Origin: Narcine bancroftii
Taxonomy: Eukaryota
Assembly (NCBI RefSeq): GCF_036971445.1
Contig: NC_091470.1
Span: 189,782,001 to 189,846,000, forward strand
Length of the DNA stretch: 64,000 nt
Reading direction: 5' to 3'
The position numbers and the translations under genes were made by a program. Positions 12,160 to 61,920 of the stretch are shown here, in pieces. The first letter of the stretch is position 1. Each line of letters starts with the position of its first letter. The notes beneath the pieces were generated by a model. It did not search any database and was not told where the DNA came from. It saw only the letters and a program-made list of their open reading frames with translations.

Positions 12160-12272
12160 CATGCACTCACGCGTGCACACACACACTCATGCACACACAC
12201 AAGCATACACCACACACACACACACCACACACATGCACTCATGCACTCATACAAACACACACACATGCTCAC

Positions 12273-12300
<28 letters not shown>
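12160..12300. repeat. (CA)n microsatellite
   Basis: Direct reading. Confidence 0.95.
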
Positions 12301-12303
<3 letters not shown>

Positions 12304-12639
12304 AAACTGGAGGTCGATGCTATTGCCATCCAGTTGGAGGGAGTCCAGGCGGAATATTTGTGAGAAAAGTTTAATATATTGTATATTTAAAATTCAATCG
12401 GGGGATTGAATTCAAGCGTGGTCACGAGTGTAGCAGTTTCATCGGGTTACACTTGGACAGAGGGATGATCGTTGAACTCTCCAGGACTGTCAGGTTGCGG
12501 AGGGTTCACTGTGGCATCCAGATATGCCGGGGGATGGGGGGTGGGGGAGTGTAAGGTCTTGGATTGGACCCCTCTGCTGCCCATGGGGTGGTATCCAAAG
12601 CCTTAGCAACCCTCCCTCCCCTTGGATCTGACCTCTCTT

Positions 12640-13140
12640 CCACCCCCCACCCCCGGCTCCAGACAGACCGAGAGCAATGGGTGGGGTCGCGATGCCTTTT
12701 GCCTAAGAGCTCGCCGCGCTGAGAGAGAGCAGCTCACCGGCCCCGTGTGCGGGCTCGTCTTCAGGGAGCCGCTGTCCCTGGCCGGCGGCCACACATCGTG
12801 CAGGGAGTGCGTGAGCGGGCTGCGGACGGACCAGAGCTCGACCGGCTGCAGCCCAGCGGAGGTGGCCGCCAGGATGGCGAGCACCCTGCGGGAGATCCCG
12901 GAGCTCGGCGAGGGCCAGCAACCGGGCGAGTGCGAGCAGCACAACCTGCCCTACACCGCCTTCTGCCTGGATGACATGAGGCTGGTCTGCGACAAGAGCG
13001 CCAGGGAGTGTCCGACGATCCCGGTGAAGGAGGCGGCCGAGCGATTCAAGGTGCCTGACACCCGCGGGTGGATCTCGGAACCGGGTCTTGGTGGTGCAAC
13101 CTTGTTCAAGTCAGTGGCTGATTAACCCGGACCGCTGGGC
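12640..13140. promoter_or_regulatory. CpG-island-like region over TRIM exon 1
   Basis: Visibly high GC and CpG density relative to the CpG-poor flanks. Confidence 0.55.
12663..13050 (+). CDS. TRIM gene exon 1: degenerate RING plus degenerate B-box; first usable in-frame ATG at 12874
   Basis: Frame of ORF 12622-13125 reads EQLTGPVCGLVFREPLSLAGGHTSCRECV (RING-like) and CEQHNLPYTAFCLDDMRLVC...IPVKEAAERFK (B-box2 end typical of TRIM exon 1). Upstream CTGAC + pyrimidine tract + AG at 12661-62. Donor AAG|GTGCCT at 13051 (phase 0, weak consensus). CpG-rich. Confidence 0.8.
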
Positions 13141-13304: not shown

Positions 13305-13670
13305 GTTGAGCCCGAGGTCCCAGCCCCACCGTGAGCCCGAAGTCCCAGCCCCACCGGGTGTGCCCGAGGTGCCAGCCCCACCGGGTGTGCCCGAGGTCCC
13401 AGCCCCACCGGGTGTGCCCGAGGTGCCAGCCCCACCGGGTGTGCCCGAGGTCCCAGCCCCACCGGGTGTGCCCGAGGTGCCAGCCCCACCGGGTGTGCCC
13501 GAGGTGCCAGCCCCACCGGGTGTGCCCGAGGTCCCAGCCCCACCGGGTGTGCCCGAGGTCCCAGCCCCACCGGGTGTGCCCGAGGTCCCAGCCCCACCGG
13601 GTGTGCCCGAGGTCCCAGCCCCACCGGGTGTGTCCGAGGTCCCAGGCCCACCGGTTGTGCCCGAGGTCCT
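13305..13670. repeat. 27-bp GC-rich minisatellite, ~13 copies
   Basis: Unit CCCGAGGT(C/G)CCAGCCCCACCGGGTGTG; PEVPAPPGV periodicity in the ORF track. Confidence 0.95.
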
Positions 13671-13924
13671 AACTCTTCCACCCTGGAAGCCTGAGGTCCC
13701 CCCTCTCCCGCTCAGGAGCCCGAGGTCCCCCCTCTCCCGCTCAGGAGCCCAAGGTCCCCGCTTCTGCCTGGGAGCCTGGACGTTCCTGCTCCTGCCGTTT
13801 AACACCCCCTCCCCCCACCTTTCAGGCCTCTAGGCTTAAACCCACTCCGCCTAATGGTGAATATGTCGCAGGTCCAAGCCCAACGCACAGAACATAGTGA
13901 AACACCAAAGTCTGCAGATGCTGT

Positions 13925-25114: not shown

Positions 25115-25204
25115 GCAAAACTTCAACAAACCTTGGAATACCTGGAGAAGCAGGCAGCGGAAAACGTGGACCGCAACGAACAGACGAATCTCATCGACCT
25201 TAAG
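25115..25204 (+). CDS. TRIM gene exon 2 (coiled-coil, 90 bp, AKLQQTLEYLEKQAAENVDRNEQTNLIDLK)
   Basis: ttttttaacag| ... AAG|gtgagg, phase 0-0, open; size close to the usual ~96-bp TRIM exon. Confidence 0.8.
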
Positions 25205-28675: not shown

Positions 28676-28906
28676 AACCAGGGTGACACAGTTCGGGACA
28701 AGATCCAACAAGCTTTCGACTCTCTCCGGAAGTTTCTGGAGAAGGAGGAAAAGGCCATTGCCACAGAAGTGGAAGATCAGGAGGAGTACTTCCTAGGGCA
28801 GCTGGAAGACAGTAATGCTCAAACTGGAGGCAACCCCATCTCCCTTCATCACCTGATAATGGATATTAAAAAAAAGTTGCAGCAGGAGGAGGTTCCCTTA
28901 CTCAAG
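28676..28906 (+). CDS. TRIM gene exon 3 (coiled-coil, 231 bp, NQGDTVRDKIQQAFDSLRKFLEKEEKAIATEVEDQEEYFLGQL...QQEEVPLLK)
   Basis: tttttttctccag| ... AAG|gtaaga; exactly the characteristic 231-bp TRIM coiled-coil exon; F..LR.FL..EE motif. Confidence 0.93.
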
Positions 28907-31970: not shown

Positions 31971-31993
31971 AATATCGGTGCTATATTTGACAG
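31971..31993 (+). CDS. TRIM gene exon 4 (23-bp exon, NIGAIFDR)
   Basis: ttctttctccttttag| AATATCGGTGCTATATTTGACAG |gtatgt; 23 bp, phase 0-2, the characteristic TRIM micro-exon; restores frame into exon 5. Confidence 0.85.
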
Positions 31994-36428: not shown

Positions 36429-36544
36429 GTCTGGTAACCTTTTACAGAAACCCAAGGAACTGCCTCTGGATTTCAGTCAGGGTGGATTCAATGTCCCACT
36501 ACAGTACATGGTGTGGAAGTTGATGTTAAAGCATATCAAACCAG
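36429..36544 (+). CDS. TRIM gene exon 5 (116 bp linker, SGNLLQKPKELPLDFSQGGFNVPLQYMVWKLMLKHIKP)
   Basis: tttcacag| ... CCAG|gtaaag, phase 2-1; PLQY.VW..M...I.P motif typical of fish TRIM35/A33-like genes. Confidence 0.9.
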
Positions 36545-37708: not shown

Positions 37709-38271
37709 TTCCTACCCTCCTGACACTGGACCCAAAAACAGCGAACTCTCACCTCATCCTGTCACGGGATGGCATGGAGGTGCGTGTGGGCGACAAGCAG
37801 GAGGACCTGCCGGACAATCCGGAGAGGTTCAGTCACTGGCTCAGCATCCTAGGCTCAGAGGGCTTCACCTCCGGCAAGCACTGCTGGGAGGTAGAGGTGG
37901 CTGAGAGCTCCGTCTGGCAGGTGGGGGTGGCCAGGTCTGCCGTGCCCCGTAAGAGAGGCTTCGCTCCATTCCACTGGCAGGAGAGCCGCAAGTTCTTCAC
38001 GCCAGAACCCAATGCGGGGGTGTGGGCTTTGGCCTCACAAGATGGCGACTACGCAGCTCTGACCTCGCCTCCTGTTGAACTGCACCTGAAGGGAAGGTTG
38101 AGAAGGCTGGGGGTTTACCTGGATTATTCCGCCGGACAGGTGTCCTTTTACAATGCCGATGACATGTCCCACCTCCACACTTTCACCGACACGTTCACCG
38201 AGGCAATGTTCCCTTACTTCTACATTGCTCACAAGGGAGACTCACTGCGACTAGTCACACTGGGGATCTAA
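37709..38271 (+). CDS. TRIM gene last coding exon: PRY/SPRY (B30.2) domain
   Basis: tatttcag| then LTLDPKTANSHLILS...LPDNPERF...LGSEGFTSGKHCWEVEV...LGVYLDYSAGQVSFYN...HLHTFTDTFTEAMFPYF; stop TAA 38269-71. Confidence 0.97.
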
Positions 38272-39149: not shown

Positions 39150-41820
39150 TTTTAGAAACCGACTTTTCTGGCTTTTGTATTTGCAAAATCTTTCAAAATA
39201 ATTTCAAAGTCAATGCTTTTAGTAATGTCATTTTCTATAGATAGCATCGCCAAATTGTTTAGTCTCTCTTGTGAAATTATGTTTTAATCAGTTTTACTTT
39301 GGAAAAACTTCTTTCCCCCACCCCCCCCCCCCCCCACCTCACCCCCAGCCCGATGCGACTGTTACAGGCATTGTTAAGTAAACCCTCAAAGCAATAAAAA
39401 CATTAGGAACTGCTGTGAATCGGTTGTTTCCATCCAGGTATTCAAACAGAGCTTGAGGCTTAACCACACTGAAGGGAAGAAAAGTTTTCAGACCTTCAAG
39501 TTCTTCGGCCAACAGATAACCATCCACGTCTTTAGTGTGTTTCAGTAACTGCCCCTTCATTAGTGCTCTGTTTTAGTATGCTGTCAGTTAAAGCTGCTTC
39601 AAGGTCTGCCGTGTGTTTCCTTATTTCCACCTTTTCTAAGCTCTAAAAGTTATTTAAAAATCCAAATAATTTTACATGGCTTCTAAGCTGCTTAAATCTA
39701 GACTCTAAAGATTGAATAGCTTTGTCTAGCACTAAGCTGATCTCTGTGCTTCTTTTGGATCATCTAAAGCTCGATCTTTTGCCTCGTATGAAAACATTCT
39801 CTTCCTTCTACGTAGTTTTTTTTCTTGAAATTGTCTAAACTCCAATGGTAATTCAACAGCTTCAGCCAATTCATTTGCGCCTATTAGGACATCATTAAAA
39901 CCGCCCTCTCTATAAATTCTTAGCCATGATAATAGTTTTTCAAATGACTCAATGTCCTTTGTTTCACTTTGTAGTTTCTTGTTACATAGTTAACTTTAAA
40001 AAGTACTTCATGCCAAAATATCAAAGAAACTAAAAATTTGTAGCCTTTTAGCTGGTTTGCTAAAGATTCAGCTTCTGCTTTTACCTTGGGCTCATCTGTT
40101 ATCTCTGATATTTCCACAAGTGCATCATATACTTCTCCAACCTGATAACAAACAGCTTTAACACTATCAATCCGACACTCCCACCTTGTGTTGCTCAAAG
40201 GTTTCACTGATAACCCGGGTACATGTTTGGTAAAAACTGCCCACCTCTTAGTTGATGCTGAGAACACTATGTAGATCCTTTGCAAGATCCCAAAAAATGT
40301 TATAGCATCTGGACAACACTTGGCTACATCTCCGAGTAAAAGGTTATAATTGTGACATGCACAGGGTACAAAGAAAGCTCTTGAATTATCCTTCAACAGT
40401 CGTGCTTGTACTCCAGATGTGTGACCTTTCATGTTGCTTCCGTTGTCATAGCCTTGGCCTTGAATGTCTTTCACCTCTAAATTTAATTCCTTCAGTGTGT
40501 TTAATAATGTTTCATATAAATATTCTCCTGTGCTACTTTCAACCTGCATAAACTTTATGAAATGTTCATAAACACCTGAAGGAGCCAAGTTACCATCAGA
40601 CACATACCTGATCGTTAGAGACATTTGCTCTTGGTGGCTCATATCAGGTGTACAGTCTAAAATTATGGCGTAGTAATTAGCTGCTTTTACGCGTTTCAGT
40701 ATCTCATTCAAAACAGCTGTAGCCATTATGTCTAGTAGTTCATTCTGAGTATCTTTTCCTAAATAATGATTATGAATTTGGTGGGTTTTGACTTTTCGCA
40801 AATGTTCTCAAGAACAGGGTCAAACTTTCCAAACAGCTCAGCAAGACCTAAAAAGTTTCCACTGTGTACACTCTTATTACCAACTTTTTCCTCTGTTCCT
40901 CTAAATGCTAGATTTCTCTCAGCAAGAAACTGCGCTCTTGCTCCTAACCTTTTGAATACTTGGTGCCAGTGCTTTACATGTTCATTGACAATTATTTCAA
41001 GTTCTTTGTCAATTAGTGGGTCCACTACAAAGTCTTTGGTGTAACTCCCAGAAACTCCATGTGGCTTCTAAATGGTTTTTAGAATTTTCATGCTCATACA
41101 ACCTTGTATGAAGATTAGACCAGTTGTTGAATCCACTTGTTGATAATGCACTGGTTGTGTTCTTACTACAAAAATTTACAATAAAAGCAATAAATTCTAT
41201 CAGCGGACTGAGAGTATATAATCCAAGGTCTGTCAACACACTCCCCATTTGGAACTTTCCTCTTGCAGTGAAACTTGGAAAAACATAATCCCTTTTCATT
41301 TCGTGGAAAGTTGTTCACTGGAATAGGAGGACCTTTCATTGTTAAATAATCTCTTACATTTAGATATATATATATATATATATATATATATGCTGGCCAG
41401 TTGGCTGGGTCATCATAAATGTTAAATACAACTGTACTCATGGATGATCCATCATTGCGTGATGTTTGGCTTGGTCTTTTTCGGCTATAAGTGGACTTTC
41501 CGCTTTGGCACTGTCTTCTGGTGTAGTGAGATGGTCTTCAATTTAATTCACAGCTTCGTCATCCTTTTCTAACTTGTTTTCAATTTCATCATTGAATTCA
41601 ACACTGTAATTGGACTCAAGGCTGTATTGTTATTTTCTGAATTGTTTTTGTTTTCTTCATCTTCAATACATGGACGCTTCAAAGATGGAGTGACAGGTAA
41701 TTTGGTAATAGCACCTCTATGTTTTTCATTTTCAGCTACCTTAGCCTTGGCCAGTGCTTGTTTCTGGTTGCCACTTAAATGCTTTGGTCCTTTGTCTCTA
41801 TCTCTGCTTGTCCTTGCCAT
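39150..41820 (-). pseudogene. Frameshifted hAT transposase (TTF-type zinc finger, DUF4371 core, hATC dimerisation region)
   Basis: RPWIIYSQSADRIYCFYCK; FLAERNLAFRG...GNFLGLAELFGKFDPVL; YYAIILDCTPDMSHQEQMS; GQGYDNGSNMKG; VPCACHNYNL; LSNTRWECRID; PNVFIALRVYLTMPVTVAS, spread over several frames. Confidence 0.92.
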
Positions 41821-44445: not shown

Positions 44446-44902
44446 GAACTGTTTGAATGAAAGGGTAACTTTGCTTTGGTTCTTCCTTCTCTGTGTTACC
44501 GAGGTATTTTGCAGATTCTGTCCCCTCCACTCCCCGACCCAGGACACTTGCTTCCAATAATCTCGACACACTAAGTGCAGTTTTCTACTCCTCCTTGGAT
44601 TGTAATGTTATGATCTCAATGTCTGTGCCGGGCTGAACTTGGATAGTTTGCTTGCTTAGCAGAATCTGTAAATACCACAGTGACAGCATCAGAATCAAAC
44701 AGGAAGAAAAGTGGTTCATATTTAGGATAATTGTGCAAATTAATCAAAGACAATATCATTTGGGGGGGTGTGGCAAGATGGCGTAGGGAACAGACATGCC
44801 TTCCAGACCTCTCCTGACTCTGATTTATTGTTTTGTCTTTAAGTACCTGTTAAAGTTCTTTTAAAAGTTTATAAATAATAAGAGGTGCTGGATTAGTGCC
44901 TA

Positions 44903-46168
44903 ATGGTTTATATGCCAAAAAAAGGTAAAAGAAAACATCAACAGACTGTTAAAAAACTACATTTTCCAAAATTGTCTGAGCCTACTTGTTTAAAAGAAGC
45001 CAGGACTCAGCGTAGAATGGATCCAGAGGAAGACGTACAGAGTTCGGCATTGAAACTCCGTTTTAAGCCGGTGAGGCTCTTTGAAGGTCGCATTCAACAG
45101 CTTTCAGACCAAAGAGCTGGACGGGTGCCAGTATTTCACACAACGGCCACTGTGAGTGCTGTTACTCAGACTTTGACAGTTGAATCAGCTGGGGCACCAC
45201 CAGTTGGAGAGTTAAGGAGCTGTCATTCGACTGCTACAGTGGTGGCGCTGCAAAATGCATCTTCAATTACAACGGTTTTTCCAGACATCGATTCAGTGAA
45301 GATGATTAAAGAGATTTGGCTTAAAGATAACCTTAATCTTCAGTCTCCTGGCATTGCTGGGGGGACTTTGAGAGGGATTTTTATACGAAGTCAAACTGCT
45401 AGAAAAGATACTAAATTAAGGGAAGGGACAGAAGATCCTGTGGTCTCTAAGGAACAGCAAGACCCCATTATGCCTGAATCTACTTCTGTTGAAATGTCTG
45501 TTAAGGATCTTGAAGATAAGATATATTCTGTATCGAGTCACTTAGCTAATTTTGTGAACCTGTTTATTTCCAAGATTAATGCGATGGCGGAAGTCATTAA
45601 TGGAGCTTTTAAGCTTGAAACCATTGAAAGATTTGAAATGTGTGATCAAGGCTTAGTCGATGCACAGGATCAACTGCAAGATGAAAATAGAATAATTGAA
45701 ACATTGCAGATCCAAAATAAAAATTTAGCAAAAAAGGTTGATTATTTGGAGAATCAATCTAGATGGAACAACGTGAAAATTGTTGGTTTGCCAGAAGGCA
45801 TAGAAGGACCAGATCCAAGAAATTTTTTTACTGAATGGATTCCACGAGTGTTAGGACAGGATAAATTCCCTGAAGGTTTAATACTGGAACGTGCTTATAG
45901 AGTTTTAAGAAGAAAATCTTTTTCAGGACAGAATCCAAGATCTGTTTTGATCCGTTGTTTAAACTATTGTGACAGAGAGACAATTTTACGTACGGCTATT
46001 AGAAATGCCCAGCAAAATAGATCTCCTTTGATGGTTCAGAATAATCCTGTTTTCTTCTATCAAGATTTGAGTCAAGAAATTATGTTTCAACGACGCAAAT
46101 TTAATCCTGTGAAAGAATGGTTGTGGAAAAAAGACATAAGGCAACATTCAGGTATTCTGCGGTACTGA
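44903..46168 (+). CDS. L1 ORF1p (coiled-coil, RRM, CTD); frameshift near 46130 and stops in the C-terminal tail
   Basis: LENQSRWNNVKIVGLPEGIEG...ILERAYRV...PRSVLIRCLNYCDRETIL...FFYQDLSQEIMFQRRKF; continuation KATFRYSAVLKIF in a shifted frame. Confidence 0.88.
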   Translation: MVYMPKKGKRKHQQTVKKLHFPKLSEPTCLKEARTQRRMDPEEDVQSSALKLRFKPVRLFEGRIQQLSDQRAGRVPVFHTTATVSAVTQTLTVESAGAPPVGELRSCHSTATVVALQNASSITTVFPDIDSVKMIKEIWLKDNLNLQSPGIAGGTLRGIFIRSQTARKDTKLREGTEDPVVSKEQQDPIMPESTSVEMSVKDLEDKIYSVSSHLANFVNLFISKINAMAEVINGAFKLETIERFEMCDQGLVDAQDQLQDENRIIETLQIQNKNLAKKVDYLENQSRWNNVKIVGLPEGIEGPDPRNFFTEWIPRVLGQDKFPEGLILERAYRVLRRKSFSGQNPRSVLIRCLNYCDRETILRTAIRNAQQNRSPLMVQNNPVFFYQDLSQEIMFQRRKFNPVKEWLWKKDIRQHSGILRY

Positions 46169-59676: not shown

Positions 59677-60851
59677 CTTTCTTTGGCTTGGCTTCGCGGA
59701 CGAAGATTTATGGAGGGGGTAAAAGTCCACATCAGCTGCAGGTTCGTTTGTGGCTGACAAGTCCGATGCGGGACAGGCAGACACGGTTGCAGCGGCTGCA
59801 GGGGAAAATTGGCTGGTTGGGGTTGGGTGTTGGGTTTTTCCTCCTTTGCCTTTTGTCAGTGAGATGGGCTCTGCGGTCTTCTTCAAAGGAGGTTGCTGCC
59901 CGCCAAACTGTGAGGCGCCAAGATGCACGGTTTGAGGCGATATCAGTCCACTGGCGGTGGTCAATGTGGCAGGCACTAAGAGATTTCTTTAGGCAGTCCT
60001 TATACCTTTTCTTTGGTGCACCTCTGTCACGGTGGCCAGTGAAGAGCTCGCCATATAACACGATCTTGGGAAGGCGATGGTCCTCCATTCTGGAGACGTG
60101 ACCCACCCAGCGCAGCTGGATCTTCAGCAGCGTGGACTCGATGCTGTCGACCTCTGCCATCTCGAGTACTTCGACGTTAGGGATGAAAGCGCTCCAATGG
60201 ATGTTGAGGATGGAGTGGAGACAACGCTGGTGGAAGCGTTCTAGGAGCCGTAGGTGATGCCGGTAGAGGACCCATGATTCAGAGCCGAACAGGAGTGTGG
60301 GTATGACAACGGCTCTGTATAGCTTATCTTTGTGAGGTTTTTCAGTTGGTTGTTTTTCCAGACTCTTTTGTGTAGTCTTCCAAAGGCGCTATTTGCCTTG
60401 GCGAGTCCGTTGTCTATCTCATTGTCGATCCTTGCATCTGATGAAATGGTGCAGCCGAGATAGGTAAACTGGTTGACCGTTTTGAGTTTTGTGTGCCCGA
60501 TGGAGATGTGGGGTGGGGGGCGCGCTGGTAGTCATGGTGGGGAGCTGGCTGATGGAGGACCTCAGTTTTCTTCAGGCTGACTTCCAGGCCAAACATTTTG
60601 GCAGTTTCCGCAAAGCAGGACGTCAAGCGCTGAAGAGTTGGCTCTGAATGGGCAACTAAAGCAGCATCGTCTGCAAAGAGTAGTTCACGGACAAGTTTCT
60701 CTTTTGTCTTGGTGTGAGCTTGCAGGCGCCTCAGATTGAAGAGACTGCCATCCGAGCGGTACCGGATGTAAACAGCGTCTTCACTGTTGAGGTCTTTCAT
60801 GGCTTGGTTCAGCATCATGCTGAAGAAGATTGAAAAGAGGGTTGGTGCGAG
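59677..60851 (-). mobile_element. Young 5'-truncated RTE-clade LINE
   Basis: VLAPTLFSIFFS...LLFADDAALVAHS; LRWVGHVSRM..HRLPK..LYGEL; C-terminal CxxC...H zinc knuckle; (AAAG)n tail; TSD AACA(A/T)TTTGCATT. Confidence 0.93.
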
Positions 60852-60864
60852 AACATTTTGCATT

Positions 60865-61920
60865 ACAGCACAATTAACGAATCTGTTCTCATCTCCTCAA
60901 ACTGAAATCTTCAGAAGAATTTTTTTTAATATAAAACCTCACCTAATCCATAAAAAAAAGAAAACGACTGGCAGCCTATCCTGAGAATTTATTGATAAAA
61001 ATGCATTTATCGGGTCTTCACCAACAAGGAGAAAAGATTTAGTCCAGAAGGGAAAATATTTCTACTAACTAAGTCATGTGGAAATAATTTATAAAAGGTC
61101 GCCAAGTCTCTTCAAATTTAACAGACATATCAAATGTACGACCCCTAACTTTCTCTCAACTTAAACATGACGTAATTTGAGAGAGCCACCGAGTCAAAGT
61201 CGGTGGATTAGAATCTTTCCATTTAAATCAGATCGCTCTTCCAGCCGACAGTGCAGGAAAGGACACAGCCCGATGTGTGGAAGTGGGAACTCGTCCGACT
61301 TCTGGAAGTTTCATTTCAAAAAGAGCAGTCAACGTGTTAGGCTGAAAACTGATGTCCAGTATTGCTGACAAAGTCTTAAAAATATCTATCTCAACTTCTC
61401 CAATGCAGGACATGACCGAAACGTACGAGTTAGAGAAGCCACTTCTGATTTACATCTATCACAAATAGAACTAATGTTAGAAAAAAATACAGGCCAATTT
61501 GTCATTCTACTCATGAGCCCAATTAACCATTTTAAACTGAATCAAAGAATGACGAGCGCATAATGAAGAGGTATTAACCAATCCCAAAATCTTCTCCCAT
61601 GATTCCTCTGGAAAATGTAACTGAAGTTCCTTTCCCAGGCACTTTTAATTTTTTCATTAGAATTTGATTACAATCTTAAGAACTCATTATAAATGTTTCC
61701 TATTAAACCCTTATGAGATGGGTTTAATGAAAATAATTCGGTTGGTACAATGTTGGAAATTGGGCAGTGAAGTGTTCAGAATATGCAAATCAGCACGAAG
61801 GAAGCTGAAGTTACCCATGACAACAAACACTGATATTCTTGCATCTTTCCAAAATATGCCGACTTATCTTCTCTTCTATGGCCATGTGGACATTTGGCTG
61901 GCTATATTAGTATGGTCCCA
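60865..61920 (-). mobile_element. Old L1 ORF2 3' fragment (its tail at ~59560-59660 is separated by the RTE)
   Basis: SLPNFQ motif; C.RC motif; LIQFK; degraded. Confidence 0.6.

What the first reader, a model, noticed from the sequence alone, without database searches (positions are those of the whole stretch)
12677..13050. TRIM gene with a disabled RING start but an intact RING-less reading frame (candidate decoy TRIM)
Seen: the apparent ancestral start (ATG 12677/12692: MPFA*ELAALRE) has an in-frame TAA at 12704 and a 2-bp excess in the GAGAGAGAG run (12721-29) before QLTGPVC. RING Cys1 and Cys3 are Gly (GGC) and the last CxxC pair is missing; the B-box lacks its distal C/H ligands. Yet ATG 12874 sits in GCCGCCAGGATGG (near-perfect Kozak), and exons of 177+90+231+23+116+563 nt give an uninterrupted 399-aa B-box-remnant/coiled-coil/PRY-SPRY protein. 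Known: RING-less TRIM isoforms can dimerise through the coiled-coil and act dominant-negatively. Inference: either a ligase-dead, uORF-regulated TRIM or a young pseudogene.
Basis: partly seen in the sequence, partly recalled or inferred. Interest (0 to 1): 0.7.

Follow-up and report, generated by a model that had tools for sequence, protein, structure and literature searches.

The report
Ray TRIM gene shed its RING
In an electric ray, an immune-region gene whose counterparts in other sharks and rays carry an intact ubiquitin-ligase (RING) module has let that module decay, yet its first intron is spliced out and its other 399 codons stay intact and conserved, so it likely makes a ligase-dead binding protein from a later start codon.

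Summary
Observation confirmed: TAA at 12704, a 2-nt frameshift, Cys16/Cys31→Gly, a deleted last CxxC, and a 399-codon six-exon frame from ATG 12874. That protein equals RefSeq XP_069775816.1 (Narcine bancroftii, named 'E3 ligase TRIM39-like'). A probable-RNA contig carries exon 1 without a difference, and that run shows exon 1 joined to exon 2, so this is no assembly error. The gene is single-copy, 14 kb from an MHC class I gene. All 12 full-length orthologue models keep an eight-ligand RING; 7 more species have models without exon 1. Decay is concentrated 5' of the Met: 16 of 34 otherwise invariant residues changed there, 19 of 226 after it. So this is likely a living RING-less TRIM, with the RING left as a fossil in the 5' leader. 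Corrections: the Kozak context comes from an old Ala-Ala-Lys-Met-Val stretch; part of the B-box defect is shared by all 12 orthologues; the decoy idea lacks a close partner (nearest paralogue coiled-coils ≤33% identical). Protein production is not shown, and very recent death is not excluded. RING-less TRIMs are known (TRIM14, TRIM16).

The parts
12672..12873 (+). Likely 5' leader holding the fossil RING-coding sequence (old codons 1-73); 71% G+C
   Evidence: Probable-RNA contig begins at 12672 with nothing joined 5' of it in the tables shown (contigs cannot prove a start); alignment to 12 orthologues; G+C
12677..12706 (+). Short uORF MGGVAMPFA*; ATG 12692 is the orthologous start (4 codons), TAA 12704-12706 stands where orthologues have Glu5 (Gly in the two Mobula)
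   Evidence: contexts -3G/+4G (12677) and -3G/+4C (12692)
12721..12729 (+). GA run with a 2-nt excess: frameshift between the old start and the RING remnant
   Evidence: same length in X5 and X3 contigs
12730..12873 (+). RING remnant: Cys16→Gly (12739), Cys31→Gly (12784), C19/H33/C36/C39 kept, 24-nt deletion removing C53/C56, 15-nt deletion
   Evidence: Pfam zf-C3HC4_4 22.5 bits, under the cut-off of 30
12874..13050 (+). Coding part of exon 1: likely start Met (old Met74, GCCGCCAGG ATG G) and B-box2 remnant (C20 H23 C31 D34 C39 C46; His deleted)
   Evidence: zf-B_box 18.7 bits, under the cut-off of 24.1; donor at 13050 joined to exon 2 in X5
25115..25204 (+). Exon 2, coiled-coil
   Evidence: its first letters appear as the loose end at 13051 in X5
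28676..28906 (+). Exon 3, coiled-coil
   Evidence: weak TRIM_CC match, E 0.038; helix 51-138
31971..31993 (+). Exon 4 (23 nt), linker
   Evidence: RefSeq model
36429..36544 (+). Exon 5 (116 nt), linker helix
   Evidence: RefSeq model
37709..38271 (+). Exon 6: PRY-SPRY (B30.2) domain with a 12-residue insertion shared by orthologues; stop TAA
   Evidence: (PRY E 2e-20, SPRY E 3e-21)
12189..12359 (+). Alternative first exon of RefSeq isoform X2 (CA-repeat-derived, joins exon 2, also RING-less); probably minor
   Evidence: an X5 contig of depth 47 reaches 12494 and runs off the laid stretch at 12310

Best explanation
This is the single electric-ray copy of a conserved shark-and-ray TRIM gene whose RING-coding sequence is broken in this species, and it likely still makes a 399-residue RING-less protein that would pair through its coiled-coil and would bind a partner through PRY-SPRY without ubiquitinating it. 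Shown: the lesions, their presence in a probable-RNA contig, the exon 1-2 splice, intact RINGs in orthologues, and constraint that resumes at Met 12874. Inferred: ribosomes translate or bypass the 4-9-codon uORF and reinitiate, or scan on, to the old internal Met74, 167 nt past the stop. That Met already had a strong context, so one early stop could have removed the RING at a stroke, leaving the RING DNA to decay as 5' leader; the order of lesions is not known. Inferred: the product is a ligase-dead adaptor or shield for the ancestral SPRY partner, not an enzyme. The partner is unknown.
For: Exon 1 contig in run X5 (RNA is the tool's guess): 0 differences, depth 1045 against 11 for the intron contig, loose end equal to exon 2. 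All 4 of 4 RefSeq isoforms lack the RING. Eight-ligand RING pattern in 12 of 12 full-length orthologues. Residues invariant in those 12 but changed here: 16 of 34 before the Met, 19 of 226 after it (Fisher p 1.7e-7; substitutions only p 6e-4). Branch lengths 0.69 (pre-Met), 0.40 (B-box), 0.19 (coiled-coil), 0.15 (SPRY). Differences from Pristis in coiled-coil+SPRY are conservative (mean BLOSUM 0.63 against -0.39 neutral; none of 20,000 draws as high); before the Met they do not differ from neutral (p 0.12). Chance that frame and splice sites survive 0.08-0.15 neutral substitutions per site is 0.006 to 1.5e-7. Orthologue clade support 100; the next own-genome SPRY is 54% identical to the Pristis protein against 85% here. 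The model has a confident B30.2 fold and a long helix 51-138. Reinitiation after early nonsense codons, over gaps of 6-243 nt and with escape from decay, is reported for p53 (PMC6614817, abstract seen).
Against: No protein or ribosome evidence. ATG 12677 has a strong context (-3G/+4G) and the leader is 71% G+C (predicted fold -93.9 kcal/mol, no shuffle control), which may cut output. Coiled-coil and SPRY also changed faster than in other rays (0.15-0.19 against 0.02-0.04 for Pristis), with 7 of 79 and 7 of 118 invariant sites changed, some radically (G153D, R280L, L397S). The conservative-change test alone is not significant for the coiled-coil against Rhinoraja (p 0.10), and it was also non-significant before the Met in 2 of 3 control pairs with intact RINGs. 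A neutral phase of up to 0.02 substitutions per site is not excluded (survival 0.12-0.52). No dN/dS was possible (no orthologue DNA). Only the exon 1-2 joint was seen in reads. X7, of the same study, has no contig on exon 1.
Confidence: 0.62

Rival explanations
1. A transcribed, dying gene: RING loss removed the function, the rest is now drifting or untranslated, and the open frame simply has not been hit yet.
For: Electric-ray branch several-fold longer than Pristis even in coiled-coil and SPRY, His118 of the B-box lost, some radical changes at invariant sites. Both stingray models (Hypanus, Hemitrygon) hold only the SPRY exon, which could mean the gene is dispensable in some rays. TRIM genes degenerate repeatedly across mammals (PMC2533329, passages seen).
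Against: Sharp contrast at the Met. Five own-genome paralogues that group with shark sequences have SPRY end branches of 0.22-0.55 against 0.11 for this gene, so fast change looks lineage-wide (quick tree, pairs not proven orthologous). Spliced exon 1 contig at about 90 times the intron contig's depth (depth is a poor measure of expression).
Confidence: 0.2
2. Dominant-negative decoy: the RING-less protein pairs with RING-bearing paralogues of the MHC cluster and blunts their ligase activity.
For: 45 of 68 PRY-SPRY matches lie in the same 13-Mb cluster, and 16 of 18 cluster first exons examined keep an eight-ligand RING. TRIM17 binds and inhibits TRIM39, TRIM41 and TRIM28, possibly through inactive hetero-oligomers (PMC8157266, passages seen).
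Against: No RING-bearing copy of this gene exists to be inhibited. Nearest own-genome exon-3 matches are 29% and 25% identical; paralogue-type coiled-coils from other species are 24-33% identical over full length.
Confidence: 0.1
3. A longer protein is made from an upstream exon spliced in at 12663 or from a non-AUG start in the open frame 12607-12873, keeping a RING remnant with some function.
For: The frame is open from 12607 and an AG precedes 12663.
Against: X5 shows no contig over 12495-12671 and no extra depth in the 12687-12715 bin. No RefSeq isoform uses it. The remnant has only 4 of 8 zinc ligands, so it would not be a RING in any case.
Confidence: 0.05

Closest known systems
'Incomplete' RING-less TRIMs of mammals: TRIM14 (B2-CC-PRY-SPRY), TRIM16, pyrin/TRIM20 (PMC2533329, passages seen)
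   Same: B-box2/coiled-coil/PRY-SPRY without RING; best fold matches are TRIM20 CHS-B30.2 and TRIM72.
   Different: Independent origin within one ray lineage from a RING-bearing single-copy gene. The RING fossil is still readable in the leader, and the B-box is also degenerate (6 of 8 ligands).
Elasmobranch orthologue group named 'E3 ubiquitin-protein ligase TRIM39-like' (e.g. XP_051899673.1 Pristis, XP_078271995.1 Rhinoraja, XP_041068268.1 Carcharodon)
   Same: One clade (support 100); 81-85% identity to the Pristis and Rhinoraja proteins in coiled-coil and SPRY; same 12-residue SPRY insertion and same missing sixth B-box Cys.
   Different: Orthologues have 463-509 residues with an intact C3HC4 RING; here 399 residues and no RING. 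Orthology to human TRIM39 was not tested and the name is automatic.
N-terminally truncated proteins made by reinitiation after an early nonsense codon (p53; PMC6614817, abstract seen)
   Same: Stop close to the first AUG, downstream in-frame AUG within the reported 6-243 nt range (167 nt here).
   Different: Here it appears to be an evolutionary state of the species' only copy, not a disease allele; reinitiation itself is untested.
MHC-linked TRIM clusters of birds, reptiles and mammals (PMC10445537, passages seen); zinc-finger genes around elasmobranch MHC-Ia-like genes (PMC10751288, passages seen)
   Same: PRY-SPRY TRIM cluster beside class I and PSMB8/PSMB9-like genes.
   Different: This member is slow-evolving and single-copy rather than a recent duplicate. 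PMC10751288 has no occurrence of 'TRIM' in its main text; its supplements were not read.

Membership tests
Canonical TRIM E3 ligase (RING-B-box-coiled-coil) | C3HC4 RING with eight zinc ligands in the translated frame | tested here: not met
   4 of 8 ligands, cut off from the old start by a stop and a frameshift, and upstream of Met 12874
Canonical TRIM E3 ligase (RING-B-box-coiled-coil) | Complete B-box2 | tested here: not met
   6 of 8 ligands; Pfam 18.7 bits under the cut-off of 24.1; orthologues have 7 of 8 and also fail the pattern
Canonical TRIM E3 ligase (RING-B-box-coiled-coil) | Ubiquitin-ligase activity | not testable with these tools
   needs an in vitro assay
Incomplete (RING-less) TRIM, B2-CC-PRY-SPRY type | No RING in the protein | tested here: met
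Incomplete (RING-less) TRIM, B2-CC-PRY-SPRY type | B-box present | tested here: inconclusive
   recognisable remnant (E 0.002, under cut-off), modelled at pLDDT about 73, zinc binding doubtful
Incomplete (RING-less) TRIM, B2-CC-PRY-SPRY type | Coiled-coil and PRY-SPRY intact | tested here: met
   helix 51-138 (pLDDT 62-73), PRY and SPRY over cut-off, B30.2 fold matches at E below 1e-21
Incomplete (RING-less) TRIM, B2-CC-PRY-SPRY type | Protein is made in cells | not testable with these tools
   only a spliced exon 1-2 contig in a probable-RNA run
Unitary pseudogene | Loss of constraint over the whole coding sequence | tested here: not met
   19 of 226 invariant sites changed after the Met against 16 of 34 before it; conservative changes; protein-level test only, very recent loss not excluded
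Dominant-negative TRIM decoy | A RING-bearing partner close enough to co-dimerise | tested here: inconclusive
   no twin copy; nearest coiled-coils 24-33% identical; binding not tested

The most novel reading that the evidence does not exclude
A ubiquitin ligase conserved across sharks and rays and lying beside MHC class I was converted in electric rays into its functional opposite. One early stop plus a ready-made internal Met turned the degrader of its SPRY partner into a protector of it, with the old start kept as a uORF that sets the dose. A sister paralogue 1.3 Mb away has lost its start codon and has a perfect-context ATG at the same internal Met, so the cluster may be built to flip this way repeatedly.
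Probability: 0.15. Interest if true: 0.7.

Novelty: new member of a known kind. Interest (0 to 1): 0.4.

Why it matters
RING-less TRIMs such as TRIM14 and TRIM16 are known, but as finished products. Here the before state (12 orthologues with a RING) and the after state (a fossil RING in the leader) can both be read, which gives a natural, testable case of how a ligase becomes a non-catalytic adaptor. It also shows that the SPRY and coiled-coil of this conserved MHC-linked TRIM likely have a job that needs no ligase activity. In practice, the database name 'E3 ubiquitin-protein ligase' is misleading for this protein.

Tried and rejected
Assembly error: rejected, since X5 and X3 contigs match exon 1 with 0 differences. 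X5 has another sample and study code but could be the same animal, so fixation in the species is not shown directly. Run X6 (organism B, depth 3) matches 12835-13074 with 0 differences, including the B-box deletion; it is a very close relative or stray DNA and of no use as an outgroup. Joints of exons 2-6 were not seen in reads; they rest on GT-AG sites, orthologue alignment and the RefSeq model. Kozak context as evidence of a selected new start: rejected. B-box decay as specific to this species: half rejected. Independent RING loss elsewhere: 7 of 19 other species have models lacking exon 1 altogether (Hemitrygon, Hypanus, Amblyraja, Stegostoma, Chiloscyllium, Heterodontus, Cetorhinus); they could be gaps or real losses and were left out of all counts. 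MHC class II beta search found nothing, controls included: uninformative. No complex prediction was run: a TRIM coiled-coil homodimer would pass by likeness, and no full own-genome paralogue protein of the sister clade was at hand. Literature: 9 searches; 'Narcine'+'TRIM' gave 3 papers whose titles and abstracts are unrelated; none listed describes this gene, but the library lacks most subscription journals and no supplements were read.

Full report
Observation. ATG 12677 and ATG 12692 are in one frame that ends at TAA 12704-12706, and the RING remnant lies in the frame of ATG 12874, shifted by the GA run at 12721-12729. Six exons (12874-13050, 25115-25204, 28676-28906, 31971-31993, 36429-36544, 37709-38271), all five introns GT-AG, give 399 codons. 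Pfam finds sub-threshold RING and B-box remnants, a weak TRIM coiled-coil match and strong PRY and SPRY matches. The protein is identical to RefSeq XP_069775816.1 of Narcine bancroftii, named 'E3 ubiquitin-protein ligase TRIM39-like'; all 4 of its 4 isoform models lack the RING.

Not an assembly error. In run X5 (RNA by the tool's guess; other sample and study codes than the possible source DNA) one contig covers 12672-13051 with 0 differences and 0 gaps at depth 1045, a loose end at 13051 reads as exon 2, and the intron contig has depth 11. DNA run X3, possibly the assembly's source, also matches exactly. Nothing is joined 5' of 12672 in the tables shown, which fits a start there but cannot prove it. 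X7 has no contig on exon 1. The joints of exons 2-6 were not seen in reads.

Setting. The window is C5:189.78-189.85 Mb. 45 of 68 PRY-SPRY matches in the genome lie at C5:178-191 Mb. An MHC class I gene (alpha1, alpha2 and alpha3 exons) lies about 14 kb upstream on the same strand. PSMB8-like and PSMB9-like exons lie 1.8 Mb away. This fits the elasmobranch class Ia region, where Ia-like genes are said to be surrounded by zinc-finger genes (PMC10751288, passages seen).

Orthologues. Searches found this gene in 19 other shark and ray species. Twelve have full models and all 12 match an eight-ligand RING pattern. Seven have models lacking exon 1 and were left out. A quick SPRY tree of 73 rows groups the 15 orthologue rows with support 100, apart from all 28 own-genome paralogues included. 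In the own genome only this locus matches the Pristis protein closely (63% in exon 1 and 85% in SPRY, against 38% and 54% for the next best). The gene is therefore single-copy, and among the species whose exon 1 could be read the RING loss is confined to this one.

What broke. ATG 12692 is the orthologous start, and TAA stands at residue 5. Then come the 2-nt excess, C16G, C31G, an 8-residue deletion taking C53 and C56, and a 5-residue deletion. In the B-box the sixth ligand is absent from all 12 orthologues; this species also lost His118 in a 3-residue deletion but keeps the last Cys (ligand numbering follows the recalled B-box2 consensus). The new start is old Met74. Seven of 12 orthologues have AAKMV there, and the genetic code alone then gives A at -3 and G at +4, so the strong context predates the loss.

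Alive or dead. Residues invariant in the 12 orthologues changed at 16 of 34 sites before the Met and 19 of 226 after it (Fisher p 1.7e-7; substitutions only p 6e-4; gap placement near residue 70 is ambiguous by one site). Branch lengths on a fixed species tree are 0.69 before the Met, 0.40 in the B-box region, 0.19 in the coiled-coil and 0.15 in SPRY. Differences from Pristis in coiled-coil plus SPRY are conservative (mean BLOSUM 0.63 against -0.39 for neutral single changes); before the Met they are not distinguishable from neutral. That test is weak on short regions: it was also non-significant before the Met in 2 of 3 control pairs with intact RINGs. A Poisson model (44.6 nonsense-target sites, 20 splice bases) gives survival of 0.006 or less at 0.08 substitutions per site, but 0.12-0.52 at 0.01-0.02. 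So the rest of the gene stayed under selection while the RING decayed, but a very recent death cannot be excluded. Against my reading, coiled-coil and SPRY also ran several times faster than in Pristis. In its favour, five own-genome paralogues that group with shark sequences have longer SPRY branches (0.22-0.55) than this gene (0.11) (pairs not proven orthologous). No dN/dS was possible without orthologue DNA.

Likely working. The leader holds two uATGs in one 9-codon frame that stops 167 nt before ATG 12874, with no other ATG between. Reinitiation over 6-243 nt after early stops, with escape from nonsense-mediated decay, is reported for p53 (PMC6614817, abstract seen); its use here is inferred. 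The AlphaFold model (mean pLDDT 72.6, pTM 0.49) has a long helix 51-138 and a confident B30.2 domain, and its best matches are TRIM20 and TRIM72. From general TRIM knowledge (recalled) it would dimerise and present two SPRY domains. A 12-residue SPRY insertion (FAPFHWQESRKF region), absent from the four paralogues aligned, is unchanged here and nearly invariant across orthologues (missing in one Mobula model), which suggests a retained partner. I put 0.62 on a living, ligase-dead adaptor or shield, 0.2 on a dying gene, 0.1 on a paralogue decoy and 0.05 on a longer product.

Decoy idea. Potential targets exist: 16 of 18 cluster first exons examined keep eight RING ligands (18 of 23 first-exon matches, a set biased towards intact RINGs). 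Hetero-inhibition among TRIMs is described for TRIM17 (PMC8157266, passages seen). But no close coiled-coil partner exists (25-29% for exon 3 in the genome; 24-33% for paralogue proteins of other species).

Comparison and verdict. Six human B-box proteins lack the RING, including TRIM14 and TRIM16 (PMC2533329, passages seen), so the architecture is known. This is a new, independent and traceable case. Nine literature searches listed no paper on this gene; coverage is partial and no supplements were read. The look-up of earlier notes returned 2 items, neither on this gene. Novelty: new member of a known kind. Interest 0.4.

Noticed in passing
L042:4328-8500 (G000:C5:189.776-189.780 Mb, +), just 5' of the window: MHC class I gene with alpha1, alpha2 and alpha3 exons; best PDB match 6lup (E 1e-33). 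By eye it keeps the peptide-anchoring residues of classical class I (positions recalled). Further class I matches at C5 190.37 and 191.08 Mb.
   Followed up: partly
L047 (G000:C5:188.509 Mb, -): Sister paralogue with an intact eight-ligand RING but no start codon: its shark relative P0112 begins MASERELE, here the frame reads FASERELE with a stop five codons upstream. The next in-frame ATGs are inside the RING and at the same internal Met (GCCACCATGG). Possibly a younger parallel case; an upstream exon is not excluded.
   Followed up: partly
window 37709-38271: 12-residue insertion in the SPRY domain, nearly invariant across sharks and rays and absent from the paralogues aligned; low pLDDT in the model.
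   Followed up: partly
P0124, P0125, P0141: Both stingray models (Hemitrygon, Hypanus) contain only the SPRY exon on long contigs: annotation gap or a second, deeper loss.
   Followed up: no
L052, L057 (C5 180.86 and 188.69 Mb): Two cluster paralogues with damaged RINGs: a stop inside the RING, and first Cys→Arg.
   Followed up: no
window 13310-13669 and 13659-13759: 27-bp tandem repeat (13.4 copies, 95% matches) and a related 29-bp repeat in intron 1.
   Followed up: no
window 39920-41537 (-): Fragmented transposase-like frames just 3' of the gene; DUF4371 match over cut-off.
   Followed up: no
window 44897-46168 (+) and 59732-60896 (-): A 423-codon frame resembling a LINE ORF1 (recalled likeness, no Pfam match) and reverse-transcriptase-like fragments (recalled likeness, not searched).
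   Followed up: no
window 12310-12494: X5 contig of depth 47 upstream of the main exon 1, overlapping the RefSeq X2 first exon; minor upstream or divergent transcription.
   Followed up: no
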